Source: Parcubacteria group bacterium (lineage in GTDB: Bacteria > Patescibacteriota > Minisyncoccia > Moranbacterales > UBA2206). Taken from it: a stretch of DNA of 64,000 nucleotides. A program made the position numbers and the translations under genes. Under the pieces are notes generated by a model. It was not told the origin of the DNA. It saw only the letters and a list, made by a program, of their open reading frames with translations, and made no database searches. The stretch spans positions 321,719-385,718 of the forward strand of contig JBAZYF010000001.1 in assembly GCA_041659505.1 (NCBI GenBank), in the 5' to 3' direction. This document shows, piece by piece, positions 1,106 to 16,328 of the stretch; position 1 is the stretch's first letter; every line of letters begins with the position of its first letter.

Positions 1106-3793
1106 TTATCGTGCCTCAAACTCAATTTTTCTCAACTGAATCATTTCATCTTCTCTTTTTCTCTCTTCTTCCGCTTTTTCTTTGAATTTTTCAATCATTC
1201 TTAAGGCAAATTTTTTAACCCATCCTTCATTTTTATTAACATAATCTTCTAATAATTTGACTTTTTCTTTATAAGCCTCGGAAAAACCGTGTACCCCCAT
1301 AACTGTTCCCGTTGAATACATAACGGACTCGACTCTATCTAAGACTTCCTTATCGGTGGTTTTTTTCACAATTTCAAAGCAAATTTCAAACGGTGGAACA
1401 TTGACAGTTCTCAAGATATCAATTGCATTGTTAAAACTTTTTTTGTCTCCTCGATTAATAATATTTTTTAAAACATCTGCAAAAGATAAATTCATTTTTT
1501 CAATAAATTCACCTAATTCCCAATTATACACGCTCCAGTCTTTTGTCATTTTTTCGGACCATTCAGAAACATATTCAAGATACCCATTTTTTTGATCCTC
1601 ACTGATATATTTTATCAAATCATCATTGAAATGATACGGAATCGCGTTATATCGCCTGTCTTTAAATTTTTTCTTCGGATTTTCTTTATCGGCCTTCTGA
1701 ATTCTTTTTAAAAACACCTCCATCAATTGGTCGAAATATTTTTCACCAATACCTAAGAGAATATTTTGCGCGCTATGATCCAGATCACTCAATTCCACTA
1801 GCCTCTTTAAAATATAATTCCTCAAGCCATTACTCCAATTTGAGATATGCGCCATTCGCTTGCTATTCATAAAATCCAACTCCCTGACATATAAACTCAG
1901 TAATTCTTGGTTGCTTTCCATTTCTTCAATTATTAATTTCTCTATTGCAATAGGATTTTTTTCGAATATTTGCAAAAGTCCAGAAAATAAAGAGGAGTGC
2001 AATAATAATTTATTAGTTCCTTTCGCCCTCAAAAATTTATATTTTCCTTTGCCCACTATGGATTTCCTTAGTAAATCTATGTCGCTTTGCCTGACAACTT
2101 TTTTTATATCTTTTGCATCAATATACATTAAAGAAACGAATGCTGTGGAAAGCAAGTCGGATGATTTAATTTCAATTATTTTCTCGACATATCTATCCCA
2201 AAGTATAACATTGTTTTTTCGCCTAAAACCAGACAGAAAATAATCAACGAAGTTAATGAGTGGTTTTTTATTTTTAAATGCGTCATCTAATAACATTTCG
2301 GCAATCATTGGCTTTTCTTCGGCAATTCTTTGCATAAAATTGTTAAACCCCTGAAGCGTCCACCCCTCAATAACATTTTTATATTTTGCAATATTATCCA
2401 AAGTTTCAATCCATCCATTAACATTGTCGTCATTTATTTTTTTAAGAGAATCATCAATTTTATCATCCTTCTTTTTTTGCCAAGCCTCATAACCTCCTTC
2501 ATGATAAACAACATCGCCAATAAGCATTCTGTATAGCCCGTAGAATTCATCTTCTCTGATCTTTTTTGTTATGTTTTCAATCTTTTTCTTATCAATAAAT
2601 TCATCCCCTTTCGACATCCAATACAGCCTATTCTCAATTTCAAGAATAATTGGTGCTTCGGCTATAATACTGCTTTTTTTATCGAAAATTACTTTTTCAT
2701 AAAATCCTACAATATAATTCAAATCATCCGCAACAAACTTTCTTCCTTTTTCATCAATACTAGAGTGAACTCTGGAAGCGTTTTCAAGAACATTAAGTAA
2801 ACTGATTTTTTCTTTTATATCCTCACTGTGATTAAAAGTTTCCATAATTAAATTAATGGAGTCAACTCTTATCTTTTTCAGGTAATCGGTCGGAGATAAC
2901 GGACCTGATTTAAAGACCATCTTATTCGCCTCGACCATTTCTGTTCCCTCAAACTCAAATTGCAAAAACTCACCCACTACTAGATTTATAATTTCTAAAT
3001 ATTTATCCCGCTTTTTTTCTTTCCACCCCAAGATAATGTCTAAAATTTTTCTTTGTGTCGTGTAACCGATATTTTTCAGAGCGAAGTAATTATATTTGGT
3101 AAGATTTTTTATAGCATCTTTTGATTTTTCAGAAATCTTTCCGTCTATTTTTAGATCAATCAAAATCTCAAAAACATCTTCTGTCTTTATATATTTAATG
3201 TAGCTTAATAATTCAACGCATTTCAAAACAAGATCTTCATAATTCTTGCCATCATATGTTCCAAATTTAGTTTTATATTTTTTGACTCTGTTTGTTTTCT
3301 TGTTTTTAATAATATCCCTGACAATATCCAACGCAATTTCCGGAACTTTATATATAAATTCTTCCAGCAATTCTAATTTTTGAAAAATTTCATCATTATT
3401 TTTATTCTTCATTACCTCCATTTTCATTTTTAGCGACGTACTACTTAAAAATGAATTTGAAATGTCACTATCAATTTTTAGCAGTTTTGAAAAAGCCCTT
3501 TTCTTTTCTTCATGATTAAACAACTTTAAAATTTCTTCAATTTTTATAAAACGGAAAAACATAGTCCCTGCTTCTTTGCTATATTTCACAGTAAAAATAT
3601 CTCTTTCTTTTGAAACCAAGTCCATTTTTAATAAATCTTCTAGATATTTTTTTTGAAAATCTACAGTAACCCCGATAATATTTTCAATCTTTTCCATAAT
3701 TCCACTCTCGGTTTGCATATCTAAATGTCCCAATAAACTGATTATTGAGTAAAAATTATTTAATTTTTTTGGAATATTATTTTTTTTCATCAT
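1106..3793 (-). CDS. Large (895 aa) K/E/I/N-rich helical protein of unknown function; its start overlaps the stop of the upstream nuclease-like gene
   Basis: Long uninterrupted ORF. The MM start at 3788-3793 overlaps the stop of the 249-aa gene by 17 nt, suggesting translational coupling. I see no Walker, HEPN or other recognisable motif. The gene is very AT-rich compared with neighbouring housekeeping genes. Confidence 0.6.
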   Translation of the reverse strand: MMKKNNIPKKLNNFYSIISLLGHLDMQTESGIMEKIENIIGVTVDFQKKYLEDLLKMDLVSKERDIFTVKYSKEAGTMFFRFIKIEEILKLFNHEEKKRAFSKLLKIDSDISNSFLSSTSLKMKMEVMKNKNNDEIFQKLELLEEFIYKVPEIALDIVRDIIKNKKTNRVKKYKTKFGTYDGKNYEDLVLKCVELLSYIKYIKTEDVFEILIDLKIDGKISEKSKDAIKNLTKYNYFALKNIGYTTQRKILDIILGWKEKKRDKYLEIINLVVGEFLQFEFEGTEMVEANKMVFKSGPLSPTDYLKKIRVDSINLIMETFNHSEDIKEKISLLNVLENASRVHSSIDEKGRKFVADDLNYIVGFYEKVIFDKKSSIIAEAPIILEIENRLYWMSKGDEFIDKKKIENITKKIREDEFYGLYRMLIGDVVYHEGGYEAWQKKKDDKIDDSLKKINDDNVNGWIETLDNIAKYKNVIEGWTLQGFNNFMQRIAEEKPMIAEMLLDDAFKNKKPLINFVDYFLSGFRRKNNVILWDRYVEKIIEIKSSDLLSTAFVSLMYIDAKDIKKVVRQSDIDLLRKSIVGKGKYKFLRAKGTNKLLLHSSLFSGLLQIFEKNPIAIEKLIIEEMESNQELLSLYVRELDFMNSKRMAHISNWSNGLRNYILKRLVELSDLDHSAQNILLGIGEKYFDQLMEVFLKRIQKADKENPKKKFKDRRYNAIPYHFNDDLIKYISEDQKNGYLEYVSEWSEKMTKDWSVYNWELGEFIEKMNLSFADVLKNIINRGDKKSFNNAIDILRTVNVPPFEICFEIVKKTTDKEVLDRVESVMYSTGTVMGVHGFSEAYKEKVKLLEDYVNKNEGWVKKFALRMIEKFKEKAEEERKREDEMIQLRKIEFEAR

Positions 3794-4526
3794 TTTTTGA
3801 AATATATTTGAATTGTTCTTTTATATTTTCTGCTTCGTTTATCCTCTCTTGATTTAATAATTCATGTTCCTTTTTTAGCTTGTTGGTGCTTGGATCATTA
3901 ATAATTCTACCCACATCCTCTCCATTATAATTTCTTCGACTATTAACTTCTATAAATTCTCGTCTTAAGTCATTAATAATATCATCTTTACTTGCTAAAT
4001 TATTAGGCATTTGTTCGTTGCTGTACATTTTTTCCCAAATAGCAGGATACAAAGCAATGCATTTTTTTAATGATAAGCTTCCCGGTGACCACCATAAAAT
4101 TTGAGATTGACCAAGTCCCAAATTATTTATTTTTGGTATTGTGTCTAACAACCATTTATCCTGTTCTTTATATTTTGAAACTACACAATAGCAAGTTGGT
4201 CCAGTTTGACCCATTACCAACATGTCGATAATTTTGTCAGCTAGCTCTTTTTTATAAATTTTTTTTCCATACTTTCCTCTCAACTCATGACTCTTGCATT
4301 CAAACCACCAATCATACAGGACTCCATTATGTCTCCATTTTGCAGTTATATCCCTTCCGTTCTGATCTCCTGCTTGCTGAATACATGGCTCTAATATAAA
4401 CGTGCTTAATAAAAAACATTCTTTAATAAATATCTTTAAAAATTCACAAAATATTTTTTCAAACTTTGTTCCCTGTGCTTGAGAATTTTTATTTTTTTTA
4501 GTTTTAGTGAGATTACTTTTTGGCAT
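3777..4526 (-). CDS. Predicted PD-(D/E)xK (restriction-endonuclease-fold) nuclease, 249 aa
   Basis: Motif ...ILEPC...GDQNGRDITAKWRHNGVLYDWWFECKSH places an acidic residue, then D, then E-C-K at typical PD-(D/E)xK spacing. It is the first gene of an overlapping pair with the 895-aa ORF. Confidence 0.5.
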   Translation of the reverse strand: MPKSNLTKTKKNKNSQAQGTKFEKIFCEFLKIFIKECFLLSTFILEPCIQQAGDQNGRDITAKWRHNGVLYDWWFECKSHELRGKYGKKIYKKELADKIIDMLVMGQTGPTCYCVVSKYKEQDKWLLDTIPKINNLGLGQSQILWWSPGSLSLKKCIALYPAIWEKMYSNEQMPNNLASKDDIINDLRREFIEVNSRRNYNGEDVGRIINDPSTNKLKKEHELLNQERINEAENIKEQFKYISKNDEKK

Positions 4527-4549
4527 TTTTTCATGAACTTGAATATTTT

Positions 4550-4870
4550 TTATACAACCCGAATAAAAGTTCCACCCTCTCCGCTGAAGAATTGAAGGGG
4601 GTTTTTGCCATAGGCGTTGTCCAAACTTCTTCCTTTGGACTTATGTTCAACCAAAAGCATCCCCGACCAAAACAAATCAACAAAACCTTGATTTCCTCCG
4701 TATTTTTTCACATGCACTTCAAATTGCGCCAAACGCCTCCGAGTCAATCCAAGCACATTGAAAAATCCATCCCAAAAAGATTTGGCTTCCGCGTCTTCCG
4801 AGCCTTCATCTTCCCATTCTTTGGAAAATTCAATCGCTCTTGATTTTATTTCATTCCATGATAGTGGCAT
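4550..4870 (-). pseudogene. Truncated N-terminal nuclease domain of an MmeI-family (Type IIL) restriction-modification enzyme
   Basis: MPLSWNEIKSRAIEFSKEWEDEGSEDAEAKSFWDGFFNVLGLTRRRLAQFEVHVKKYGGNQGFVDLFWSGMLLVEHKSKGRSLDNAY...FFSG aligns well, as I remember it, with the MmeI N-terminus (MALSWNEIRRKAIEFSKRWED...GFVDLFWPGILLIEMKSRGKDLDKAYDQALDYFSG), including the D-x9-ExK catalytic residues. The ORF stops about 105 aa in, with no helicase-like or methyltransferase part downstream. The likely true start is the internal ATG at 4870, not the ORF-track start. Confidence 0.5.
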
Positions 4871-4880
4871 AAAATTATTC

Positions 4881-5060
4881 TTATTTCTTCCAATCCTTAA
4901 CCAATACCCCTCCCCGAACACGTTTCACTACGACCTTTTGTTTGTCCTTCCAGCCAAGCTCGCGGACGACTTCGATGGGCAGAGTGAGACCGATGGATTT
5001 TCCGCCACCGGATTTGGTTAATTTTCTGATATTACTTTCTTCTGCTTTTCGCCTTGGCAT
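4881..5060 (-). CDS. AbrB/MazE/SpoVT-family small DNA-binding protein (59 aa), antitoxin-like
   Basis: Not in the ORF track because it is under 60 aa. My translation is MPRRKAEESNIRKLTKSGGGKSIGLTLPIEVVRELGWKDKQKVVVKRVRGGVLVKDWKK. The segment KLTKSGGG-SIGLTLPIEVVRELGW is the AbrB/MazE swapped-hairpin signature. Confidence 0.5.
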   Translation of the reverse strand: MPRRKAEESNIRKLTKSGGGKSIGLTLPIEVVRELGWKDKQKVVVKRVRGGVLVKDWKK

Positions 5061-5100: not shown

Positions 5101-5271
5101 TAATTCTACAACAAATCATAGCTTTAGTAAAACAGGCTTTTTCACCAAAAAACCCGCGAATGAGCGGGGTGCTTTAAATTGCTTGGTAATAATTTAGTAA
5201 AACAAAGGTCGCCTTCGCGTACCTTCTGGCGGACTGCGTCACGCCGAAGGTCCGCTACGGCGAATCAATAG

Positions 5272-5358
5272 CGGAAGGAGAGGGATTTGAACCCTCGATG
5301 CCCGTTAAGGCATGCCGCATTTCGAGTGCGGTACTTTCAACCACTCAGCCATCCTTCC
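5272..5358 (-). tRNA. tRNA-Ser(CGA), long variable arm
   Basis: Reverse complement is GGAAGGATGGCTGAGTGGTTGAAAGTACCGCACTCGAAATGCGGC...CGAGGGTTCAAATCCCTCTCCTTCCG. The cloverleaf has a 7-bp acceptor stem, anticodon loop CTCGAAA and an extended variable arm. Confidence 0.8.
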
Positions 5359-5384
5359 AAGACTATCCTGAACTGAAAATTTTG

Positions 5385-5458
5385 TGTTCTCAGGGGGGTT
5401 CGAACCTCCGACCTCAGGTTCCGGAAACCTGCGCTCTATCCAACTGAGCTATGAGAAC
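5385..5458 (-). tRNA. tRNA-Arg(CCG)
   Basis: Reverse complement is GTTCTCATAGCTCAGTTGGATAGAGCGCAGGTTTCCGGAACCTGAGGTCGGAGGTTCGAACCCCCCTGAGAACA, with anticodon loop TTCCGGA. There is one A-C mismatch in the T stem. Confidence 0.7.
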
Positions 5459-5471
5459 TGAAAAACTTTTG

Positions 5472-5544
5472 TGGACTTGAGGAGAGTCGAACTCCTGACC
5501 CCTACAATGCGAATGTAGTGCTCTACCAACTGAGCTACAAGCCC
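5472..5544 (-). tRNA. tRNA-Ala(CGC)
   Basis: Reverse complement is GGGCTTGTAGCTCAGTTGGTAGAGCACTACATTCGCATTGTAGGGGTCAGGAGTTCGACTCTCCTCAAGTCCA. The G3-U70 Ala identity pair is present and the anticodon loop is TTCGCAT. Confidence 0.8.
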
Positions 5545-12649: not shown

Positions 12650-12941
12650 ATTATTGAATTATACATTATGTATACGATAAAAGCTCCAAAATCGATGCTG
12701 AATTGTTTTTATTTGAAGGTAGATATAAAAAAAGACCAATCACATATTGGTGGTCTTTTTTTACAGAGGCGCTCTTGAAAGCTTTGAAGTGGCAAATTCT
12801 GCCTTCATATGGCTTTGGCGGACTGCGTCAGCCGTGGGCTTCAGCATGGCGAAAGCGGAGAGTATGGGACGAAATTAGAACATACGTTTCAGTATGCAAT
12901 TAAGGTAAAACAAGAATTTAGCCTCCATTTCTCCTCCTTTC

Positions 12942-13511
12942 TTATTTTTTTCTCTTATATTCCTGTGCCGCCAGCTCTCTGGCTGATTTTCTATCTTTGG
13001 GCAGTTCAATTCCATGTGCCTTAATCATATCTTCCAACAACATCTTTCTCGTTTCATATTCCGTAATTGCATATTTTTTTCTATATCTTATATCTTTAAA
13101 TTTACAGTGAAAAATTTTATTTCTTATAGCATTAATTTCTCTATAAAAACTAGCGCCCTTGATTAATTTTTTATTTTCGGAAAAATATTTTTTCAGTAAT
13201 TTTTCATAGATATTAATTTTTTGTGTAAATGTCAGCTCTTCAAAAGCATACTCCATCATTCCATTGACTTGCGGCGTAACAACGATTGCTCCTCTTTTTA
13301 TGAAATCTGCACATACTTTCTCGATATTTTTTTCACAAAAAAATATTAACATTGAAACAAAATTGATCGCCTTATAATCAGCCTCGTCTATTCCAATACT
13401 TTTGCTAAAAAATTCAATAATCTCAGCTTCGAATTTATCATTAAGTTGAGCTTCTATTGCAAGGCTATCACGAGCTTTTTCCGATAATTTTTCCAGGCTA
13501 CTTTTTGCCAT
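12942..13511 (-). CDS. Hypothetical protein with a candidate HEPN Rx4H motif (189 aa)
   Basis: EINAIRNKIFH contains an R-x4-H motif within a predicted helical protein. The gene is AT-rich and sits next to an unknown 326-aa gene and tRNA-Cys. Confidence 0.4.
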   Translation of the reverse strand: MAKSSLEKLSEKARDSLAIEAQLNDKFEAEIIEFFSKSIGIDEADYKAINFVSMLIFFCEKNIEKVCADFIKRGAIVVTPQVNGMMEYAFEELTFTQKINIYEKLLKKYFSENKKLIKGASFYREINAIRNKIFHCKFKDIRYRKKYAITEYETRKMLLEDMIKAHGIELPKDRKSARELAAQEYKRKK

Positions 13512-13583
13512 TTGATTTGTGAACAGACATCATCCCCCTAGCTTTACTCCTTACAATTTTTTTTGAACGAAGTTAGAATTTAT

Positions 13584-14561
13584 TTAATCAACAACCCTAA
13601 TTCTATTGAAGTTTTTCCCCTTAAGCCCATCTATCTTAATTTCTTCCCATTCGTAGCGAGTCGACGCAAGTTGTGACGGTGATAAGATAATTTCTTTATA
13701 CGAATCATCACTTCTTTTCAGTGCGCCCACTCCAACCCAAAATTTTGCTATAGACGATTTTGTTGTTCCTACTGAGATAGTCGTTCCTGACGGCAATGGT
13801 TGTGTGAAAGCCAGAATCTTATCTGATCGAAAATGGTAATTCGCCATGCGTTTCGTGGCCATGTAGGCGCCATGGAGTTGCCATACTTTTTCACGCCAGC
13901 TAGGATCTTTTTCTTGCTCGGGAGTTATCTTGACGTTTAATTCCACCATAGCTCTTTGTGAATCAGTGAGAGCGGGTAGTTTTCCGGCAAATTTCTGCTT
14001 AAGCTCTGAAAGGTTTCGTTCCAATATTTCATTGAACTCTTCAGAAGAGGAAAATTGGGAGCTGACCGGCGTAATTGTCATCTTAAGATTCGAAGGCTGG
14101 TAAGCCTTAAGGAAATTTATAACTTCCTGAAATGATTCTACATACCTTTCGACATCACTTATCGGGATATTATCAAGTTTTGGGACAATAGAATCATCAA
14201 CAAAAAAGTCAAACCAAACACCAGGCTCGTAAATATCACATATGCCTTTTGCCCAGTTTGTATAATACATGAGAGAAAATAGTTCCGCCCAATCGGCATA
14301 GGGTGATTCTTCTAACCGCCAAAGCTTATAGGCGCCGTGAAGAAAAGTAATATTGATTGGTTTATTCTCAGCTATCAGGAGAGAAATAGCCTTATTGCAA
14401 TGGTCTATTAATTCTTCGTTCGCCGCGTATTTTCTAAATTTTTTAGACAAAAGCAGCCGTAAAATCTCAGCCTCAATAGAGTGAGCATCTTTTATCTTGG
14501 CTATGCTATTTGCTTCTCTTAGTTTGTTTAATTGTGCTTCAAAAAATTCTTGTGGTGTCAT
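13584..14561 (-). CDS. Hypothetical protein (326 aa), unknown function
   Basis: Long ORF. The likely start is the ATG at 14561 (MTPQEFFEAQ...); the ORF-track extension to 14633 runs through tRNA-Cys. Confidence 0.45.
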   Translation of the reverse strand: MTPQEFFEAQLNKLREANSIAKIKDAHSIEAEILRLLLSKKFRKYAANEELIDHCNKAISLLIAENKPINITFLHGAYKLWRLEESPYADWAELFSLMYYTNWAKGICDIYEPGVWFDFFVDDSIVPKLDNIPISDVERYVESFQEVINFLKAYQPSNLKMTITPVSSQFSSSEEFNEILERNLSELKQKFAGKLPALTDSQRAMVELNVKITPEQEKDPSWREKVWQLHGAYMATKRMANYHFRSDKILAFTQPLPSGTTISVGTTKSSIAKFWVGVGALKRSDDSYKEIILSPSQLASTRYEWEEIKIDGLKGKNFNRIRVVD

Positions 14562-14562
14562 G

Positions 14563-14636
14563 AGATGTGGGCAGGATTTGAACCTGCGTATTTTGCTCTG
14601 CAAGCAAATGCCTAAGCCAAGCTCGGCCACCACACC
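14563..14636 (-). tRNA. tRNA-Cys(GCA)
   Basis: Reverse complement is GGTGTGGTGGCCGAGCTTGGCTTAGGCATTTGCTTGCAGAGCAAAATACGCAGGTTCAAATCCTGCCCACATCT. The anticodon loop TTGCAGA gives GCA, and the U73 discriminator is typical of Cys. Confidence 0.7.
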
Positions 14637-14686: not shown

Positions 14687-14774
14687 TGGCGGAAGAGGGG
14701 GGATTCGAACCCCCGGTACCTTGCGGCACACACGCTTTCCAAGCGTGCCGTTTAAACCACTCACGCACCCTTCC
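14687..14774 (-). tRNA. tRNA-Ser(GGA), CCA encoded
   Basis: Reverse complement is GGAAGGGTGCGTGAGTGGTTTAAACGGCACGCTTGGAAAGCGTGTGTGCCGCAAGGTACCGGGGGTTCGAATCCCCCCTCTTCCGCCA. Anticodon loop TTGGAAA, with a long variable arm. Confidence 0.8.
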
Positions 14775-14915: not shown

Positions 14916-16328
14916 CTAGAAAGCCAATTCATAATATGTGTTTACTGAAGCACCCTTTGTAATAAAAATCTCGCAATCTCGCAATTTCTTTAAATCACTA
15001 TTTATCGTAGCTCGCGGTGTTCCCCTGAGTATTTTTTGACAATCCTGAATAGTAAGCCGACTCTTCAATAACAATACGTCAATTAATTTCACCTGTCTAT
15101 CATTAAGATTGCGATATTTTTCTCCTAAAAGTATTGCTTCAAAACTATTAACTGAGTTTCTAAATAAGGGTGATGGCAAATTCCATTCTTGCATTTTTTT
15201 AATCACAATATTAATGCCTCTTCCATATTCTTCCAAATATTTGAGATCCTTAAGTCTCGCAGCGATCATTGAGTTGCGACTAAACTGCGCTTCTTTGATG
15301 TTTTCCACAGTGACACCAGGAGGAAGAGAGCCGGGATTTGCAATTTCAATTCTATCTTTAAATATTCTAATTTGGTTACAAGTTTCAATAATTTTGTAGT
15401 CACGATGGATAATAGCATTTGCGATTAATTCACGAATTCCCTCTTCTGGATATTCGTATTTCTCTACTCGCTTTGTTCCAATTATAACCGCTTTTTTGGA
15501 AATATTCTTAAGAACAAACTTATATGAATCATCAATTAGCATGTCAAGTGTTCCTTTTATATCAGCAGAATCAATGATTTCCGATGACGGATCGCTTCCC
15601 GCATATCGCACACAACGAATAACATATCTATCATAAGGACTCTTGTTCTGTGGGATACTATTAGCAAAAATCAAATAGCCACCAATCGTTGGGCTATATG
15701 CGCCGTCAAAGCGAGTAATGATACCAAGATTTTCAAGAGTGATATCGCTAACTTCGTGACTAGCGCCTCGTTGAGTTTCCAGCTCACTCTGCGCAAGAAG
15801 ATCTACCACCTTGTCAACAGAAAGCTCTTCTTTATTAACACCCCTAGCTTCAGAACGATCAAACTGAAACTCTTTTGAAGTTGCGACATATGTTCGAAAT
15901 TCGTTATCAGTAATTCTACGACTAGTATTTCCCTCTCTAATATAGGCTCCGTTTGGTAGCCCAACTGGCTTAAAATAACATGGCATATAGTCTTTTGGAC
16001 ATTCAGGAATGTAAACTGCCAAAATTATTTTATCCTTGATTTTAATCACATGATATTCTGGTCGCAAGACAAAACTCATTTTATCATTAAAATATTCCGT
16101 AAGTTTTGTTTGCATAAGATCTAAATTCATGCAACCAGTAATTTCATTTTTTTCTTGACTGACACCAAAAACAACTAATCCTCCGCCGCGACGATTAGAA
16201 AAAGCCGAGATTGTTCTCCAAATATCATTCGGGATATTTTTACTAGCTGTTTTAAATTCTAGATCGGAAAGTTCCGATGCTATCTCTAGCCCATATTTTA
16301 CTTTCTTGATAATATCCTTCTCTGTCAT
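14916..16328 (-). CDS. Schlafen-like AlbA_2 / HATPase_c_4 ('RecG C-terminal-like') putative transcriptional regulator
   Basis: The N-terminal divergent-AAA/AlbA_2-like region is followed by the IANAIIHRDY motif typical of the HATPase_c_4 domain, and a C-terminal HTH-like tail. Confidence 0.55.
   Translation of the reverse strand: MTEKDIIKKVKYGLEIASELSDLEFKTASKNIPNDIWRTISAFSNRRGGGLVVFGVSQEKNEITGCMNLDLMQTKLTEYFNDKMSFVLRPEYHVIKIKDKIILAVYIPECPKDYMPCYFKPVGLPNGAYIREGNTSRRITDNEFRTYVATSKEFQFDRSEARGVNKEELSVDKVVDLLAQSELETQRGASHEVSDITLENLGIITRFDGAYSPTIGGYLIFANSIPQNKSPYDRYVIRCVRYAGSDPSSEIIDSADIKGTLDMLIDDSYKFVLKNISKKAVIIGTKRVEKYEYPEEGIRELIANAIIHRDYKIIETCNQIRIFKDRIEIANPGSLPPGVTVENIKEAQFSRNSMIAARLKDLKYLEEYGRGINIVIKKMQEWNLPSPLFRNSVNSFEAILLGEKYRNLNDRQVKLIDVLLLKSRLTIQDCQKILRGTPRATINSDLKKLRDCEIFITKGASVNTYYELAF

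What the first reader, a model, noticed from the sequence alone, without database searches (positions are those of the whole stretch)
12942..14636. Candidate HEPN-motif protein plus a 326-aa unknown partner wedged against tRNA-Cys
The 189-aa ORF contains EINAIRNKIFH, an R-x4-H arrangement of the kind that defines HEPN RNases, and is AT-rich. It sits in tandem (72-nt gap) with a 326-aa ORF that has no recognisable domain and ends 1 nt from tRNA-Cys. HEPN proteins next to tRNA genes are often abortive-infection or toxin modules. The partner could be the cognate antitoxin or sensor.
Basis: inference. Interest (0 to 1): 0.55.

Follow-up and report, generated by a model that had tools for sequence, protein, structure and literature searches.

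The report
tRNA-fused enzyme gene plus stray HEPN
The two genes are not a toxin-antitoxin pair: the small one is a stray HEPN-type (RNase-like) gene, and the larger one belongs to a widespread family in ultra-small bacteria whose gene almost always directly follows a cysteine tRNA or a tRNA-shaped RNA, an arrangement I could not find described anywhere.

Summary
A 189-aa ORF (12942-13511, -) carries RNKIFH. A 72-nt gap separates it from a 325-aa ORF (13584-14561, -), whose ATG lies 1 nt after U73 of tRNA-Cys.

The partner reading fails. The two genes are adjacent only in this genome, and the HEPN gene is AT-rich (30% GC) and rare.

The 325-aa protein belongs to a large Patescibacteria family (at least 938 clusters, no Pfam match) with an isonitrile-synthase (PvcA/IsnA)-like fold.

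The tRNA contact is the real signal. In 51 of 54 genome loci the gene is preceded, within 0-14 nt and on the same strand, by a tRNA-Cys or a tRNA-Cys-derived cloverleaf. This cloverleaf keeps U73-CCA but lacks the canonical D and T loops, and ARAGORN and Rfam do not detect it. In all 77 metagenome loci found by the RNA pattern alone that had 100 nt or more downstream, the gene follows the RNA.

Covariation supports the fold (98% of cells paired; 14-15 of 20-21 pairs compensatory). A -10 box places the transcript start at G1. Ancient paralogs each carry their own copy.

Best reading: an obligatory tRNA(-like)-mRNA co-transcript. Its mechanism is inferred, not shown.

The parts
14687..14774 (-). 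tRNA-Ser(GGA), 50 nt upstream of tRNA-Cys. It probably heads the same transcript in this genome.
   Evidence: ARAGORN. Rfam tRNA model 53.7 bits. No promoter-like site was found between it and tRNA-Cys on the - strand.
14563..14636 (-). tRNA-Cys(GCA) with a canonical cloverleaf: D loop with GG, T loop TTCAAAT, anticodon loop UUGCAGA and discriminator U73. CCA is not encoded. This is the 5' half of the conserved tRNA(-like)-ORF-B unit.
   Evidence: ARAGORN. Rfam RF00005 59.2 bits. Model R1, built from the degenerate cloverleaves, scores 48.6 bits. The same junction ...GCATC-T-C|ATG is found in the locus of each of the three closest relatives looked up (four contigs).
13584..14561 (-). ORF-B, 325 aa. 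It belongs to a Patescibacteria-wide family with an isonitrile-synthase (PvcA/IsnA)-like fold. Its start codon lies 1 nt after U73 of the tRNA.
   Evidence: 938 homologous clusters at 55-75% identity, none with a Pfam match. AF2 model pLDDT 90.3. Foldseek hits 9dhm/9dh4/3e59 at E 5e-9 to 3e-7, TM 0.52-0.65. Shared motifs with PIsnA in a weak profile match.
13512..13583 (-). 72-nt spacer between ORF-B and ORF-A, with no terminator-like or promoter-like site on the - strand.
   Evidence: Sequence and promoter/terminator scan.
12942..13511 (-). ORF-A, 189 aa. A solitary HEPN-fold protein with low GC (30.4%), present only here next to ORF-B.
13107..13124 (-). Codons for R130-N131-K-I-F-H135, the RNxxxH HEPN motif of ORF-A.
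   Evidence: R130, N131 and H135 are invariant in alignment A3 of 44 sequences.
12875..12928 (-). 17-codon ORF (MEAKFLFYLNCILKRMF) that starts 13 nt after the ORF-A stop, with AAGGAGG 5 nt upstream of its ATG. Its status is unknown.
   Evidence: Sequence. It could not be checked in relatives because their contigs end too soon or differ.
12725..12762 (-). Hairpin followed by a T run (AAAAAAGACCACCAATATGTGATTGGTCTTTTTTT). This is the likely end of the tRNA-ORF-B-ORF-A transcript, before the msrB promoter.
   Evidence: Read directly from the sequence. The consensus scan did not list it.

Best explanation
Two unrelated things lie side by side here.

(A) The conserved unit.
- ORF-B is the protein half of a conserved two-part transcription unit of Patescibacteria.
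- The unit consists of a promoter, then a tRNA-Cys (as in this window) or a tRNA-Cys-derived cloverleaf RNA, then 0-14 nt, then the ATG of a ~325-aa enzyme with a PvcA/IsnA-like fold.

Shown:
- The linkage between RNA and gene is near-absolute in both directions.
- The cloverleaf is maintained by compensatory base changes.
- The acceptor end G1-A2-U3...A70-U71-C72-U73-C74-C75-A76 is invariant in the degenerate form.
- A -10 box sits 6-7 nt before G1.
- There is no room for another promoter.

Inferred:
- RNA and mRNA are made as one transcript that starts at G1.
- tRNA 3'-end processing separates them. This would be an RNase Z-type cut after U73 here, and a cut after the encoded CCA in the degenerate form.
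- The products would be a stable tRNA(-like) RNA and an mRNA that is essentially leaderless here (leader C-AUG) or carries a 4-14-nt leader elsewhere.
- The cloverleaf is therefore the gene's obligatory 5' expression element.
- The whole L-shape core and the acceptor end are conserved, which is more than a cutting signal would need. So the RNA is probably also read by a tRNA-binding protein, most simply ORF-B itself, either as feedback or as substrate.
- ORF-B shares several PvcA/IsnA motifs, which suggests related chemistry on an amine. Its substrate is unknown.

(B) ORF-A.
- ORF-A is a solitary, recently acquired HEPN-fold protein and a probable metal-independent RNase.
- It is inserted between ORF-B and the terminator and is probably read from the same transcript.
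- It is not a partner of ORF-B.
For: Linkage from the gene side:
- 51 of 54 assessable GTDB loci have the element 0-14 nt upstream on the same strand. Of these, 7 are ARAGORN-called tRNA-Cys and 44 are a cloverleaf that ARAGORN misses.
- The three closest relatives of the window protein that were looked up (68-73% identity, four contigs) all have tRNA-Cys with the identical junction CATC-T-C|ATG.

Linkage from the RNA side:
- A metagenome scan with the RNA pattern alone gave 80 loci.
- In 73 of the 75 with at least 150 nt downstream, an ORF-B-family gene starts 1-12 nt after the CCA. The other two also carry the gene.

Specificity:
- Model R1 finds the element nowhere else in 679 kb, apart from the bona fide tRNA-Cys genes, which score lower.

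Structure:
- 98% of cells are paired, against 31-45% when the partners are slid.
- 14 of 20 pairs (genome set) and 15 of 21 pairs (independent metagenome set) show compensatory changes. In both sets 0 of 500 shuffles reach the observed percentage paired or covariation score.
- RNAalifold finds the same cloverleaf unaided.
- The minimum-free-energy fold leaves the spacer and AUG unpaired.

Promoter:
- 122 of 124 elements have a TAnnnT hexamer ending 4-7 nt before G1 (84 at 6 nt). 86 of them have an upstream TGn.

Spacer:
- In 31 of 43 loci the CCA-to-ATG spacer is 6-7 nt.
- Its length varies in steps that are not multiples of 3, so the region is not coding.

Paralogs:
- Paralogs at 35% identity each carry their own copy, and the two copies are identical or nearly so within one genome.

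Housekeeping tRNA-Cys:
- Four loci also hold a separate, canonical tRNA-Cys with a different acceptor stem (GGCGCG...).

ORF-B fold.

ORF-A as HEPN and unlinked to ORF-B.
Against: - There are no transcript data. Co-transcription, the start at G1 and the cleavage are all inferences.
- Processing enzymes need only the acceptor/T-arm minihelix. Yet the D arm, the anticodon arm and the N-G-N-A-A loop are also conserved, which points to a further role or a different one.
- In many bacteria an encoded CCA blocks RNase Z (my own knowledge), so the cut in the degenerate form is uncertain.
- Three loci (L008, L044, L058) lack an intact element, so it is not absolutely required.
- These genomes use few Shine-Dalgarno sites anyway: about 22% of long ORFs in a crude count, against 8% of ORF-B genes. 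The absence of one is therefore weak evidence.
- The window protein itself hits no HEPN Pfam model, and Foldseek against the PDB found nothing for ORF-A.
Confidence: 0.5

Rival explanations
1. Dedicated tRNA-like cofactor. The cloverleaf is released and acts in trans as a non-ribosomal, tRNA-like carrier. It would be charged through U73-CCA and possibly the GCA loop. Its acylated end, or the RNA itself, would be the substrate of ORF-B. The operon would then be an RNA-enzyme pair, like pylT-pylS or the non-proteinogenic tRNA-Gly used by Fem enzymes.
For: - U73-CCA and the first three or four acceptor pairs are invariant, and they differ from those of the housekeeping tRNA-Cys.
- The L-shape core nucleotides (U8, A14, A21, the G15/C48 positions) are conserved.
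- U33, the 7-nt anticodon loop, G18G19 and T-Psi-C are lost, as expected for an RNA kept away from the ribosome.
- The ORF-B fold family is followed in Foldseek by TyrRS and cyclodipeptide synthases, both of which bind tRNA.
- Many invariant Lys/Arg residues, including the KKFRK motif.
Against: - A trans-acting RNA would need neither one copy per paralog nor a 6-7-nt spacing to the ATG.
- The loop is G-N-A-A: C35 is replaced in 11 of 73 distinct sequences (GGAA, GAAA). CysRS-type anticodon recognition is therefore not universal.
- ORF-B has no conserved HIGH/KMSKS-type ATP motif. LHGAY becomes FGGNK in the paralogs.
- No charging data exist.
Confidence: 0.22
2. Operator by mimicry. The cloverleaf stays on the mRNA and is bound as a tRNA-Cys look-alike by ORF-B, or by CysRS or another tRNA-binding protein. 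The bound protein blocks the nearby start codon, as ThrRS does on the thrS leader.
For: - The element always lies in cis, with tight spacing to the AUG.
- The whole tRNA shape is conserved.
- The two leaders within one genome evolve in concert, as expected if they share one trans factor.
- Structured RNAs fixed in front of a single gene family are usually cis-regulators (general knowledge).
Against: - In the window and its clade the RNA is a seemingly normal tRNA with no spacer at all, so the tRNA must be cut off if it is to function.
- The acceptor stem differs from that of the housekeeping tRNA-Cys it would mimic.
- No binding data exist.
Confidence: 0.2
3. ORF-A is a HEPN toxin and ORF-B is its antitoxin or sensor, forming an abortive-infection module that landed next to a tRNA gene.
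For: - ORF-A is HEPN-like.
- The two ORFs are in tandem, 72 nt apart, and ORF-A is AT-rich.
Against: - The pair occurs only in this genome. No ORF-A relative was found in 1.3 Mb around ~140 ORF-B genes.
- No ORF-B gene or cloverleaf lies near ORF-A relatives.
- ORF-B is a widespread, strongly conserved enzyme-like family.
Confidence: 0.03
4. No function. The cloverleaf is a decaying tRNA-Cys pseudogene, or the scar of integration into a tRNA gene, and is kept only by linkage.
For: - tRNA genes are common integration sites.
- The D and T loops have decayed.
Against: - Compensatory changes maintain all four helices across more than 110 distinct sequences.
- The acceptor end and D loop are invariant.
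- Copies are retained in front of paralogs at 35% identity.
- No integrase was seen in most of the flanking regions inspected, and the flanks vary.
Confidence: 0.03

Closest known systems
PvcA / IsnA / Dit1 isonitrile (isocyanide) synthase family (Pfam DIT1_PvcA; PDB 3e59, 9dh4, 9dhm)
   Same: - Whole-length fold match: Foldseek E 5e-9 to 3e-7, TM 0.52-0.65 over about 330 columns.
- Similar size.
- A weak profile match aligns shared motifs: the K of FPxKS with K79, DMAE with D90-W-A-E93, YPPG with Y111-E-P-G114, and the D of SDG with D123.
   Different: - 12-16% identity, and no Pfam hit even at E <= 1.
- No adjacent Fe/2OG dioxygenase (PvcB/IsnB) or other biosynthetic genes.
- Restricted to Patescibacteria in the hits seen.
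- Fused to a tRNA(-like) gene, which to my knowledge is not reported for PvcA/IsnA.
- Substrate unknown.
HEPN superfamily: small stand-alone HEPN proteins (HEPN/MNT toxins, RiboL-PSP, Apea-like, AbiF/Abi_2)
   Same: - ORF-A is all-alpha and carries an invariant R-N-x3-H plus an invariant acidic residue on an earlier helix.
- Sub-threshold Pfam HEPN hits in its relatives.
   Different: - No curated HEPN model reaches its threshold.
- No MNT or other conserved neighbour.
- A Patescibacteria-only family of about 46 representatives at 50% identity.
- Activity untested.
tRNA-like processing signals on mRNAs or lncRNAs: plant mitochondrial t-elements (PMC1920247) and MALAT1 mascRNA (PMC8457004)
   Same: A cloverleaf directly abutting a longer RNA is thought to be cut by tRNA-processing enzymes, and this defines the neighbour's end.
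   Different: - Here the setting is bacterial.
- The element is fixed at the 5' end of one protein family.
- The transcript appears to start at G1, so RNase P would not be needed.
- The whole L-shape core and the CCA are conserved.
thrS operator and ribosomal-protein leaders (autoregulation by mimicry of the protein's RNA ligand); own knowledge
   Same: A leader RNA that resembles a tRNA lies close to the start codon of a single gene family.
   Different: - The thrS operator mimics only the anticodon arm.
- Here a complete cloverleaf with CCA is present, and in some lineages it is a real tRNA.
- Binding is untested.
Dedicated tRNA-enzyme pairs: pylT-pylS, non-proteinogenic tRNA-Gly for Fem transferases (own knowledge), and the B. 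cereus pseudo-tRNA 'tRNA-Other' (PMC3399842)
   Same: - An atypical tRNA is encoded next to the enzyme.
- It has a 6-bp anticodon stem, a short D loop without GG and no T-Psi-C.
- It is unlikely to serve normal decoding.
   Different: - The 5-nt loop without U33 cannot decode at all.
- There is one copy per paralog and a fixed 6-7-nt spacing.
- The enzyme is not a recognisable synthetase or transferase.
Bacterial tRNA-mRNA co-transcripts (for example thrU-tyrU-glyT-thrT-tufB in E. coli; own knowledge)
   Same: tRNA genes and a protein gene are transcribed together from the tRNA promoter.
   Different: - In those operons there is a normal leader with a ribosome-binding site, and no obligate pairing across phyla.
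- Here the spacer is 0-14 nt and the pairing is near-absolute.

Membership tests
HEPN superfamily (ORF-A) | Conserved R-x4-6-H motif (often R-N-x3-H) | tested here: met
   R130, N131 and H135 are invariant in 44 sequences. Apart from the initiator Met, E60 is the only other invariant residue.
HEPN superfamily (ORF-A) | All-alpha helical-bundle fold superposable on solved HEPN domains | tested here: met
HEPN superfamily (ORF-A) | Match to a curated HEPN family model above its threshold | tested here: inconclusive
   The window protein hits 0 Pfam families. Among relatives, HEPN_RiboL-PSP is hit by 10 of 44 and HEPN_Apea by 7 of 44 (best E 2.7e-5), all sub-threshold or weak.
HEPN superfamily (ORF-A) | R and H juxtaposed in a dimer; RNase activity | not testable with these tools
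Toxin-antitoxin / abortive-infection pair (ORF-A with ORF-B) | The two genes co-occur as neighbours in other genomes | tested here: not met
   No ORF-A relative lies near ~140 ORF-B genes. No ORF-B lies near ORF-A relatives.
DIT1_PvcA / IsnA isonitrile synthases (ORF-B) | Sequence match to the family model (Pfam PF05141) | tested here: not met
   No hit at E <= 1. The profile search against PDB sequences gives only E 0.27 to PIsnA.
DIT1_PvcA / IsnA isonitrile synthases (ORF-B) | Same two-domain fold | tested here: met
   Foldseek hits 9dhm, 9dh4 and 3e59 at E 5e-9 to 3e-7, probability 1.00, TM 0.52-0.65.
DIT1_PvcA / IsnA isonitrile synthases (ORF-B) | Genomic partner: an Fe/2OG dioxygenase (PvcB/IsnB) or a biosynthetic cluster | tested here: not met
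   Neighbours vary and none is of this kind.
DIT1_PvcA / IsnA isonitrile synthases (ORF-B) | Converts an amino-acid amine plus ribulose-5-phosphate into an isonitrile | not testable with these tools
   Needs an enzyme assay.
Class I aminoacyl-tRNA synthetases (ORF-B) | HIGH and KMSKS ATP-binding motifs | tested here: not met
   LHGAY after strand 1 is not kept in the paralogs (FGGNK), and there is no KMSKS. The fold match to TyrRS is only TM about 0.3.
Canonical tRNA (window tRNA-Cys) | Passes general tRNA models; 7-nt anticodon loop with U33 and purine 37; D loop with GG; T loop TTCRANY | tested here: met
   ARAGORN. Rfam 59.2 bits against a 29-bit threshold. Sequence. Whether it is the genome's only tRNA-Cys could not be tested.
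Canonical tRNA (degenerate cloverleaf in relatives) | Passes general tRNA models; canonical D, T and anticodon loops | tested here: not met
   - Not called by ARAGORN.
- No Rfam hit, even at E <= 10.
- D loop is GAGAAYA without GG; the T loop is 8 nt without TTC.
- The 32:38 pair covaries, leaving a 5-nt loop.
Known cis-regulatory RNA families (T-box, riboswitches, leaders in Rfam 15) | Match to a curated covariance model | tested here: not met
   No relevant hit in L010 5800-6050 at E <= 10, and none at gathering score in 11 loci.

The most novel reading that the evidence does not exclude
The cloverleaf is a dedicated, non-ribosomal tRNA-like RNA. It would be released from the transcript, acylated at its CCA end, and used as substrate or scaffold by ORF-B. 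ORF-B would then be a tRNA-dependent relative of the isonitrile synthases. That would link the PvcA/IsnA family to the tRNA-binding class-Ic synthetase / cyclodipeptide-synthase fold, and would reveal a new RNA-dependent amino-acid chemistry in Patescibacteria.
Probability: 0.2. Interest if true: 0.9.

Novelty: new variant of a known kind. Interest (0 to 1): 0.75.

Why it matters
Patescibacteria make up a large part of bacterial diversity, and most of their conserved proteins have no known function.

This work links a very strongly conserved, unannotated enzyme family (at least 938 clusters) to a structured RNA that standard tRNA and Rfam searches miss. The linkage is near-absolute and holds in both directions.

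The result gives:
- A fold-level lead for the protein (isonitrile-synthase-like chemistry).
- A new RNA motif with strong covariation.
- A concrete case in bacteria where tRNA processing may create a leaderless mRNA, or where a tRNA look-alike serves its neighbouring enzyme.

The family occurs in animal-associated Saccharibacteria (Nanosyncoccus-type MAGs), whose relatives can be cultured and manipulated, so the models can be tested.

For annotation, it also shows that 'tRNA-Cys' calls next to this gene may not be the decoding tRNA-Cys.

The HEPN gene is an ordinary accessory gene.

Tried and rejected
- Pfam, NCBIfam, PADLOC and PHROGs on both ORFs gave nothing significant.
- Sequence search of the PDB gave only chance-level hits for ORF-A. 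For ORF-B it gave a spurious Arp5 segment plus a weak PIsnA match.
- A conserved partner for ORF-A was looked for and not found. Two close relatives share an unknown upstream gene. More distant relatives sit after a ribosomal-protein operon, near D12 methyltransferases with a LexA-like gene, or after an HTH-M78 peptidase gene.
- 'Coding, not RNA' was rejected for the element. GTG-started ORFs do run through it, but spacer lengths differ by non-multiples of 3 and the stems covary.
- 'The Cys anticodon is what is conserved' was rejected. The loop is G-N-A-A, with GGAA and GAAA variants.
- 'The degenerate form descends from the canonical form' could not be settled. In an NJ tree the canonical form makes two nested clades, but gene conversion between leaders blurs the history.
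- Absence of a Shine-Dalgarno site was dropped as an argument, because these genomes rarely show one.
- Literature searches for the PIsnA structure paper, for a tRNA-like leader in Patescibacteria, and for PvcA-like proteins in Saccharibacteria found nothing relevant. The Dit1 paper gave no residue-level data.
- One Rfam call failed because it exceeded the size limit.
Full report
**1. Observation**

The window comes from a Parcubacteria-group (Patescibacteria/CPR) MAG; both proteins are on record as hypothetical proteins WC848_01450 and WC848_01455.

On the minus strand the order of features is:
- a Schlafen-AlbA_2/HATPase_c_4 gene (14916-16328)
- tRNA-Ser(GGA) (14687-14774)
- tRNA-Cys(GCA) (14563-14636)
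- ORF-B (ATG 14561 to 13584, 325 aa)
- a 72-nt gap
- ORF-A (13511-12942, 189 aa)
- a 17-codon ORF
- a hairpin followed by a T run
- msrB and msrA

.

ORF-A contains EINAIRNKIFH. Its GC content is 30.4%, against 40.8% for the window. Rfam ends the tRNA at U73 (14563), so one base separates it from the ATG.

**2. ORF-A is a HEPN-fold protein**

- A word-indexed search found only two close relatives.
- A full HMMER profile search of 1.8 billion representatives found 46, all 150-190 aa.
- In an alignment of 44 sequences the only invariant residues besides the initiator Met are E60, R130, N131 and H135, which is the R-N-x3-H signature.
- The window protein hits no Pfam model. Its relatives repeatedly give weak hits to HEPN families: RiboL-PSP in 10 of 44, Apea in 7 of 44 (best E 2.7e-5), and also MAE_28990, Swt1, Abi_2 and Csm6_HEPN.
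- An AlphaFold2 model built on this alignment is confident (pLDDT 89.8) and all-helical.

I accept the HEPN fold. RNase activity is inferred from the family.

**3. ORF-A and ORF-B are not a pair**

- The two closest ORF-A relatives follow a different, unknown gene.
- More distant relatives sit after a ribosomal-protein operon, next to D12 methyltransferases and a LexA-like gene, or after an HTH-M78 peptidase gene. Their neighbours are not homologous to one another.
- Searching 174 loci (1.3 Mb), about 140 of them around ORF-B genes, with ORF-A and with its family profile found ORF-A relatives only in the loci fetched for ORF-A itself.
- Together with its low GC and rarity, this makes ORF-A a recent, solitary insertion.

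**4. ORF-B is a large, strongly conserved family with a PvcA/IsnA-like fold**

- 938 protein clusters match. The best 120 are 55-75% identical over the full length, carry no Pfam domain, and are named Saccharibacteria, Parcubacteria, Pacebacteria and the like.
- Their neighbourhoods differ.
- The AF2 model (63-sequence alignment) has pLDDT 90.3 and pTM 0.89.
- The best Foldseek PDB matches are the isonitrile synthases PIsnA (9dhm, 9dh4) and PvcA (3e59): E 5e-9 to 3e-7, TM 0.52-0.65 over about 330 columns.
- These are followed at E around 1e-3 by tyrosyl-tRNA synthetases and, lower down, by cyclodipeptide synthases.
- A family profile matches PIsnA weakly by sequence (E 0.27) but aligns shared motifs (K79, D90-x-A-E93, Y111-x-P-G114, D123).
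- At least three subfamilies exist at 31-35% mutual identity. Their common invariant residues include K40, R43, K44, K79, W81, E93, G114, T267, K273 and W275.
- No PvcB/IsnB-type partner gene is nearby.

**5. The tRNA contact is the conserved feature**

In 55 GTDB loci that encode the family:
- ARAGORN calls a tRNA-Cys ending 0-6 nt before the ATG in seven loci.
- In nearly all the others, the 60-90 nt upstream are a conserved sequence that ARAGORN and Rfam do not call.

Aligned (43 sequences), this sequence is a cloverleaf with:
- a 7-bp acceptor stem GAUGCGR/YCGCAUC
- U8-G9
- a 3-bp D stem with the loop GAGAAYA (no G18G19)
- an anticodon stem
- a 4-nt variable region ending in AC
- a 5-bp T stem with an 8-nt loop (NNUNAUGN, no T-Psi-C)
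- U73 followed by an encoded CCA

For the structure I wrote down:
- 98% of cells pair, against 31-45% when the partners are slid by 1-3 columns.
- 14 of 20 pairs show compensatory changes.
- None of 500 shuffles reaches the observed percentage paired or covariation score.
- RNAalifold finds the same cloverleaf on its own. It adds a covarying 32:38 pair (UA 20, CG 13, UG 8), which leaves a 5-nt loop.

Other points:
- Position 33 is not fixed as U.
- A covariance model (R1) finds one element per ORF-B gene at 71-100 bits.
- R1 scores the ARAGORN-called tRNAs at 44-58 bits (window 48.6) and bona fide tRNA-Cys genes elsewhere in four loci at 38-47 bits. It finds nothing else in 679 kb.
- Those four housekeeping tRNA-Cys genes have a different acceptor stem (GGCGCG.../...CGCGCC) and canonical loops.

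**6. An independent test starting from the RNA**

- A metagenome scan with a pattern taken only from the RNA (5' 21 nt, a gap, and 3' CATCTCCA) gave 102 stretches, of which 80 were returned as loci.
- In 73 of the 75 with at least 150 nt downstream, an ORF-B-family gene has its first residue starting 1-12 nt after the CCA.
- The other two also carry the gene (one at +196, one with a partial alignment).
- Two shorter loci visibly begin the same ORF.
- On this set (73 distinct sequences) the arms not fixed by the pattern show compensatory changes in all 11 pairs, and 97.8% of cells pair.
- The loop is N-G-N-A-A: G in 73/73, the middle base C 61 / G 7 / A 4, A in 73/73, A in 71/73. This is a GNRA-like loop rather than a strict GCA anticodon.

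**7. Anatomy of the unit**

- 122 of 124 elements have a TAnnnT hexamer ending 4-7 nt before G1 (84 at 6 nt), and 86 of them have an upstream TGn. The transcript should therefore start at G1.
- The CCA-to-ATG spacer is 4-14 nt, and 6-7 nt in 31 of 43 loci. It is A/T-rich, and its length varies by non-multiples of 3.
- The minimum-free-energy fold gives the cloverleaf and leaves the spacer and AUG free.
- Two genomes carry two paralogous genes (35% identity to each other; orthologs between genomes 56-79%), each with its own cloverleaf.
- Within one genome the two cloverleaves are identical (L060, including the spacer and first codons) or differ only in the T arm (L042). This indicates concerted evolution.
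- Three loci lack an intact element: L008, L058, and L044, which keeps only the 3' remnant.

**8. The window's own form**

- Here the RNA is a good tRNA: Rfam 59.2 bits, a D loop with GG, T loop TTCAAAT and anticodon loop UUGCAGA.
- It has no encoded CCA, and its acceptor stem (GGUGUGG/CCACAUC) is one base away from the family consensus.
- The three closest relatives of the window protein that were looked up (68-73% identity, four contigs) all have tRNA-Cys with the identical junction GCATC-T-C|ATG. Some of them have the unusual loop CCGCAAG (C33, with a possible C32:G38 pair).
- Whether this tRNA is the genome's only tRNA-Cys cannot be told from the window.
- Most ARAGORN-called forms have C33 and are doubtful decoders.

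**9. Mechanism**

Shown:
- the linkage
- the fold under selection
- the promoter position
- the lack of room for a second promoter or a leader

Inferred:
- a single transcript starting at G1
- separation of tRNA(-like) RNA and mRNA by tRNA 3'-end processing
- an mRNA that is leaderless here (C-AUG) or has a short leader elsewhere

The D arm, the anticodon arm with its GNRA-like loop, the core tertiary positions and the acceptor end are conserved beyond what a cleavage signal needs. I therefore think a tRNA-binding protein reads the RNA, most economically ORF-B itself.

My confidences:
- obligatory cis expression element made by tRNA-type processing: 0.5
- released dedicated cofactor or substrate: 0.22
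- operator by mimicry: 0.2

These three are not mutually exclusive.
- toxin-antitoxin pair: 0.03
- functionless remnant: 0.03

**10. Comparison with what is known, and novelty**

- The protein is PvcA/IsnA-like by fold but fails the family's sequence model and lacks its usual partners.
- The RNA fails every tRNA and Rfam model, yet it is a tRNA-derived cloverleaf.
- Analogues exist for each reading: t-elements and mascRNA, the thrS operator, pylT-pylS and the Fem tRNAs, and tufB-type co-transcripts.
- I found no description of this module in Rfam 15, Pfam, or the searchable literature.
- I rate it a new variant of known kinds, with high interest for RNA biology and for the dark matter of Patescibacteria.
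- The HEPN gene by itself is ordinary.

Noticed in passing
window 12875-12928 (-): A 17-codon ORF (MEAKFLFYLNCILKRMF) starts 13 nt after the ORF-A stop and has a strong AAGGAGG site 5 nt upstream. It could be a small hydrophobic peptide tied to the HEPN gene, or it could be chance.
   Followed up: partly
window 13512-13545 (-): An 11-codon ORF (ATGATGTCTGTTCACAAATCAAATGGCAAAAAGTAG, MMSVHKSNGKK) preceded by AGGGGG overlaps the ORF-A start codon in another frame.
   Followed up: no
window 14916-16328 (-): A 470-aa Schlafen AlbA_2 + HATPase_c_4 protein (GC 35.8%) lies just upstream of the tRNA pair. It matches a PADLOC pAgo-associated profile and a PHROG 'DNA helicase' family. It may be a defence or regulator gene.
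   Followed up: partly
window 1106-4921 (-), next to the tRNA cluster at 5271-5544: A very low-GC stretch (26-31%) holds an 895-aa and a 249-aa protein without Pfam hits, plus a 123-aa fragment with an MmeI N-terminal domain. This may be a decayed restriction or defence island beside tRNA-Ser/Arg/Ala.
   Followed up: partly
window 14535-14636 (-): When the first ORF-B codons are included, the minimum-free-energy fold pairs the tRNA 5' strand GGUGU.GUG with CAU.ACACC around the start codon instead of forming the acceptor stem. This is an alternative pairing that would hide the AUG. It was not seen in the two degenerate-form examples.
   Followed up: no
L060 4249-5307 and 5923-6981; L042 1656-2698 and 5924-6981: Two paralogs per genome (35% identity) each have their own cloverleaf. 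In L060 the two leaders are identical through the first five codons, although their promoters differ. This suggests gene conversion of the leader.
   Followed up: yes
L042 312-1637 (+): A class II Asp/Asn-tRNA-synthetase-like gene ends 18 nt before the cloverleaf of the a-type paralog, with the -10 box inside its last codons.
   Followed up: no
L021, L031, L037, L040, L045, L046, L172: the tRNA-Cys abutting ORF-B: These ARAGORN/Rfam-positive 'tRNA-Cys' genes have the anticodon loop CCGCAAG (C33 and a possible C32:G38 pair). They share the acceptor stem of the degenerate cloverleaves rather than that of the housekeeping tRNA-Cys. They may be mis-annotated as the decoding tRNA-Cys.
   Followed up: partly
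L169 5001-9517; L165 3508-5534: Relatives of the HEPN protein lie beside two D12-class DNA methyltransferase genes, one of them fused to a LexA/S24 domain, or after an HTH_3-Peptidase_M78 (ImmA/IrrE-like) gene. These look like mobile or defence contexts.
   Followed up: partly
L014, L015, L021, L036, L040, L045, L058 (record titles): Several contigs that carry the module are deposited as Limnocylindrales, Clostridiaceae, Gammaproteobacteria or Nevskiaceae MAGs. Given the gene content, these are probably mis-binned Patescibacteria contigs.
   Followed up: no
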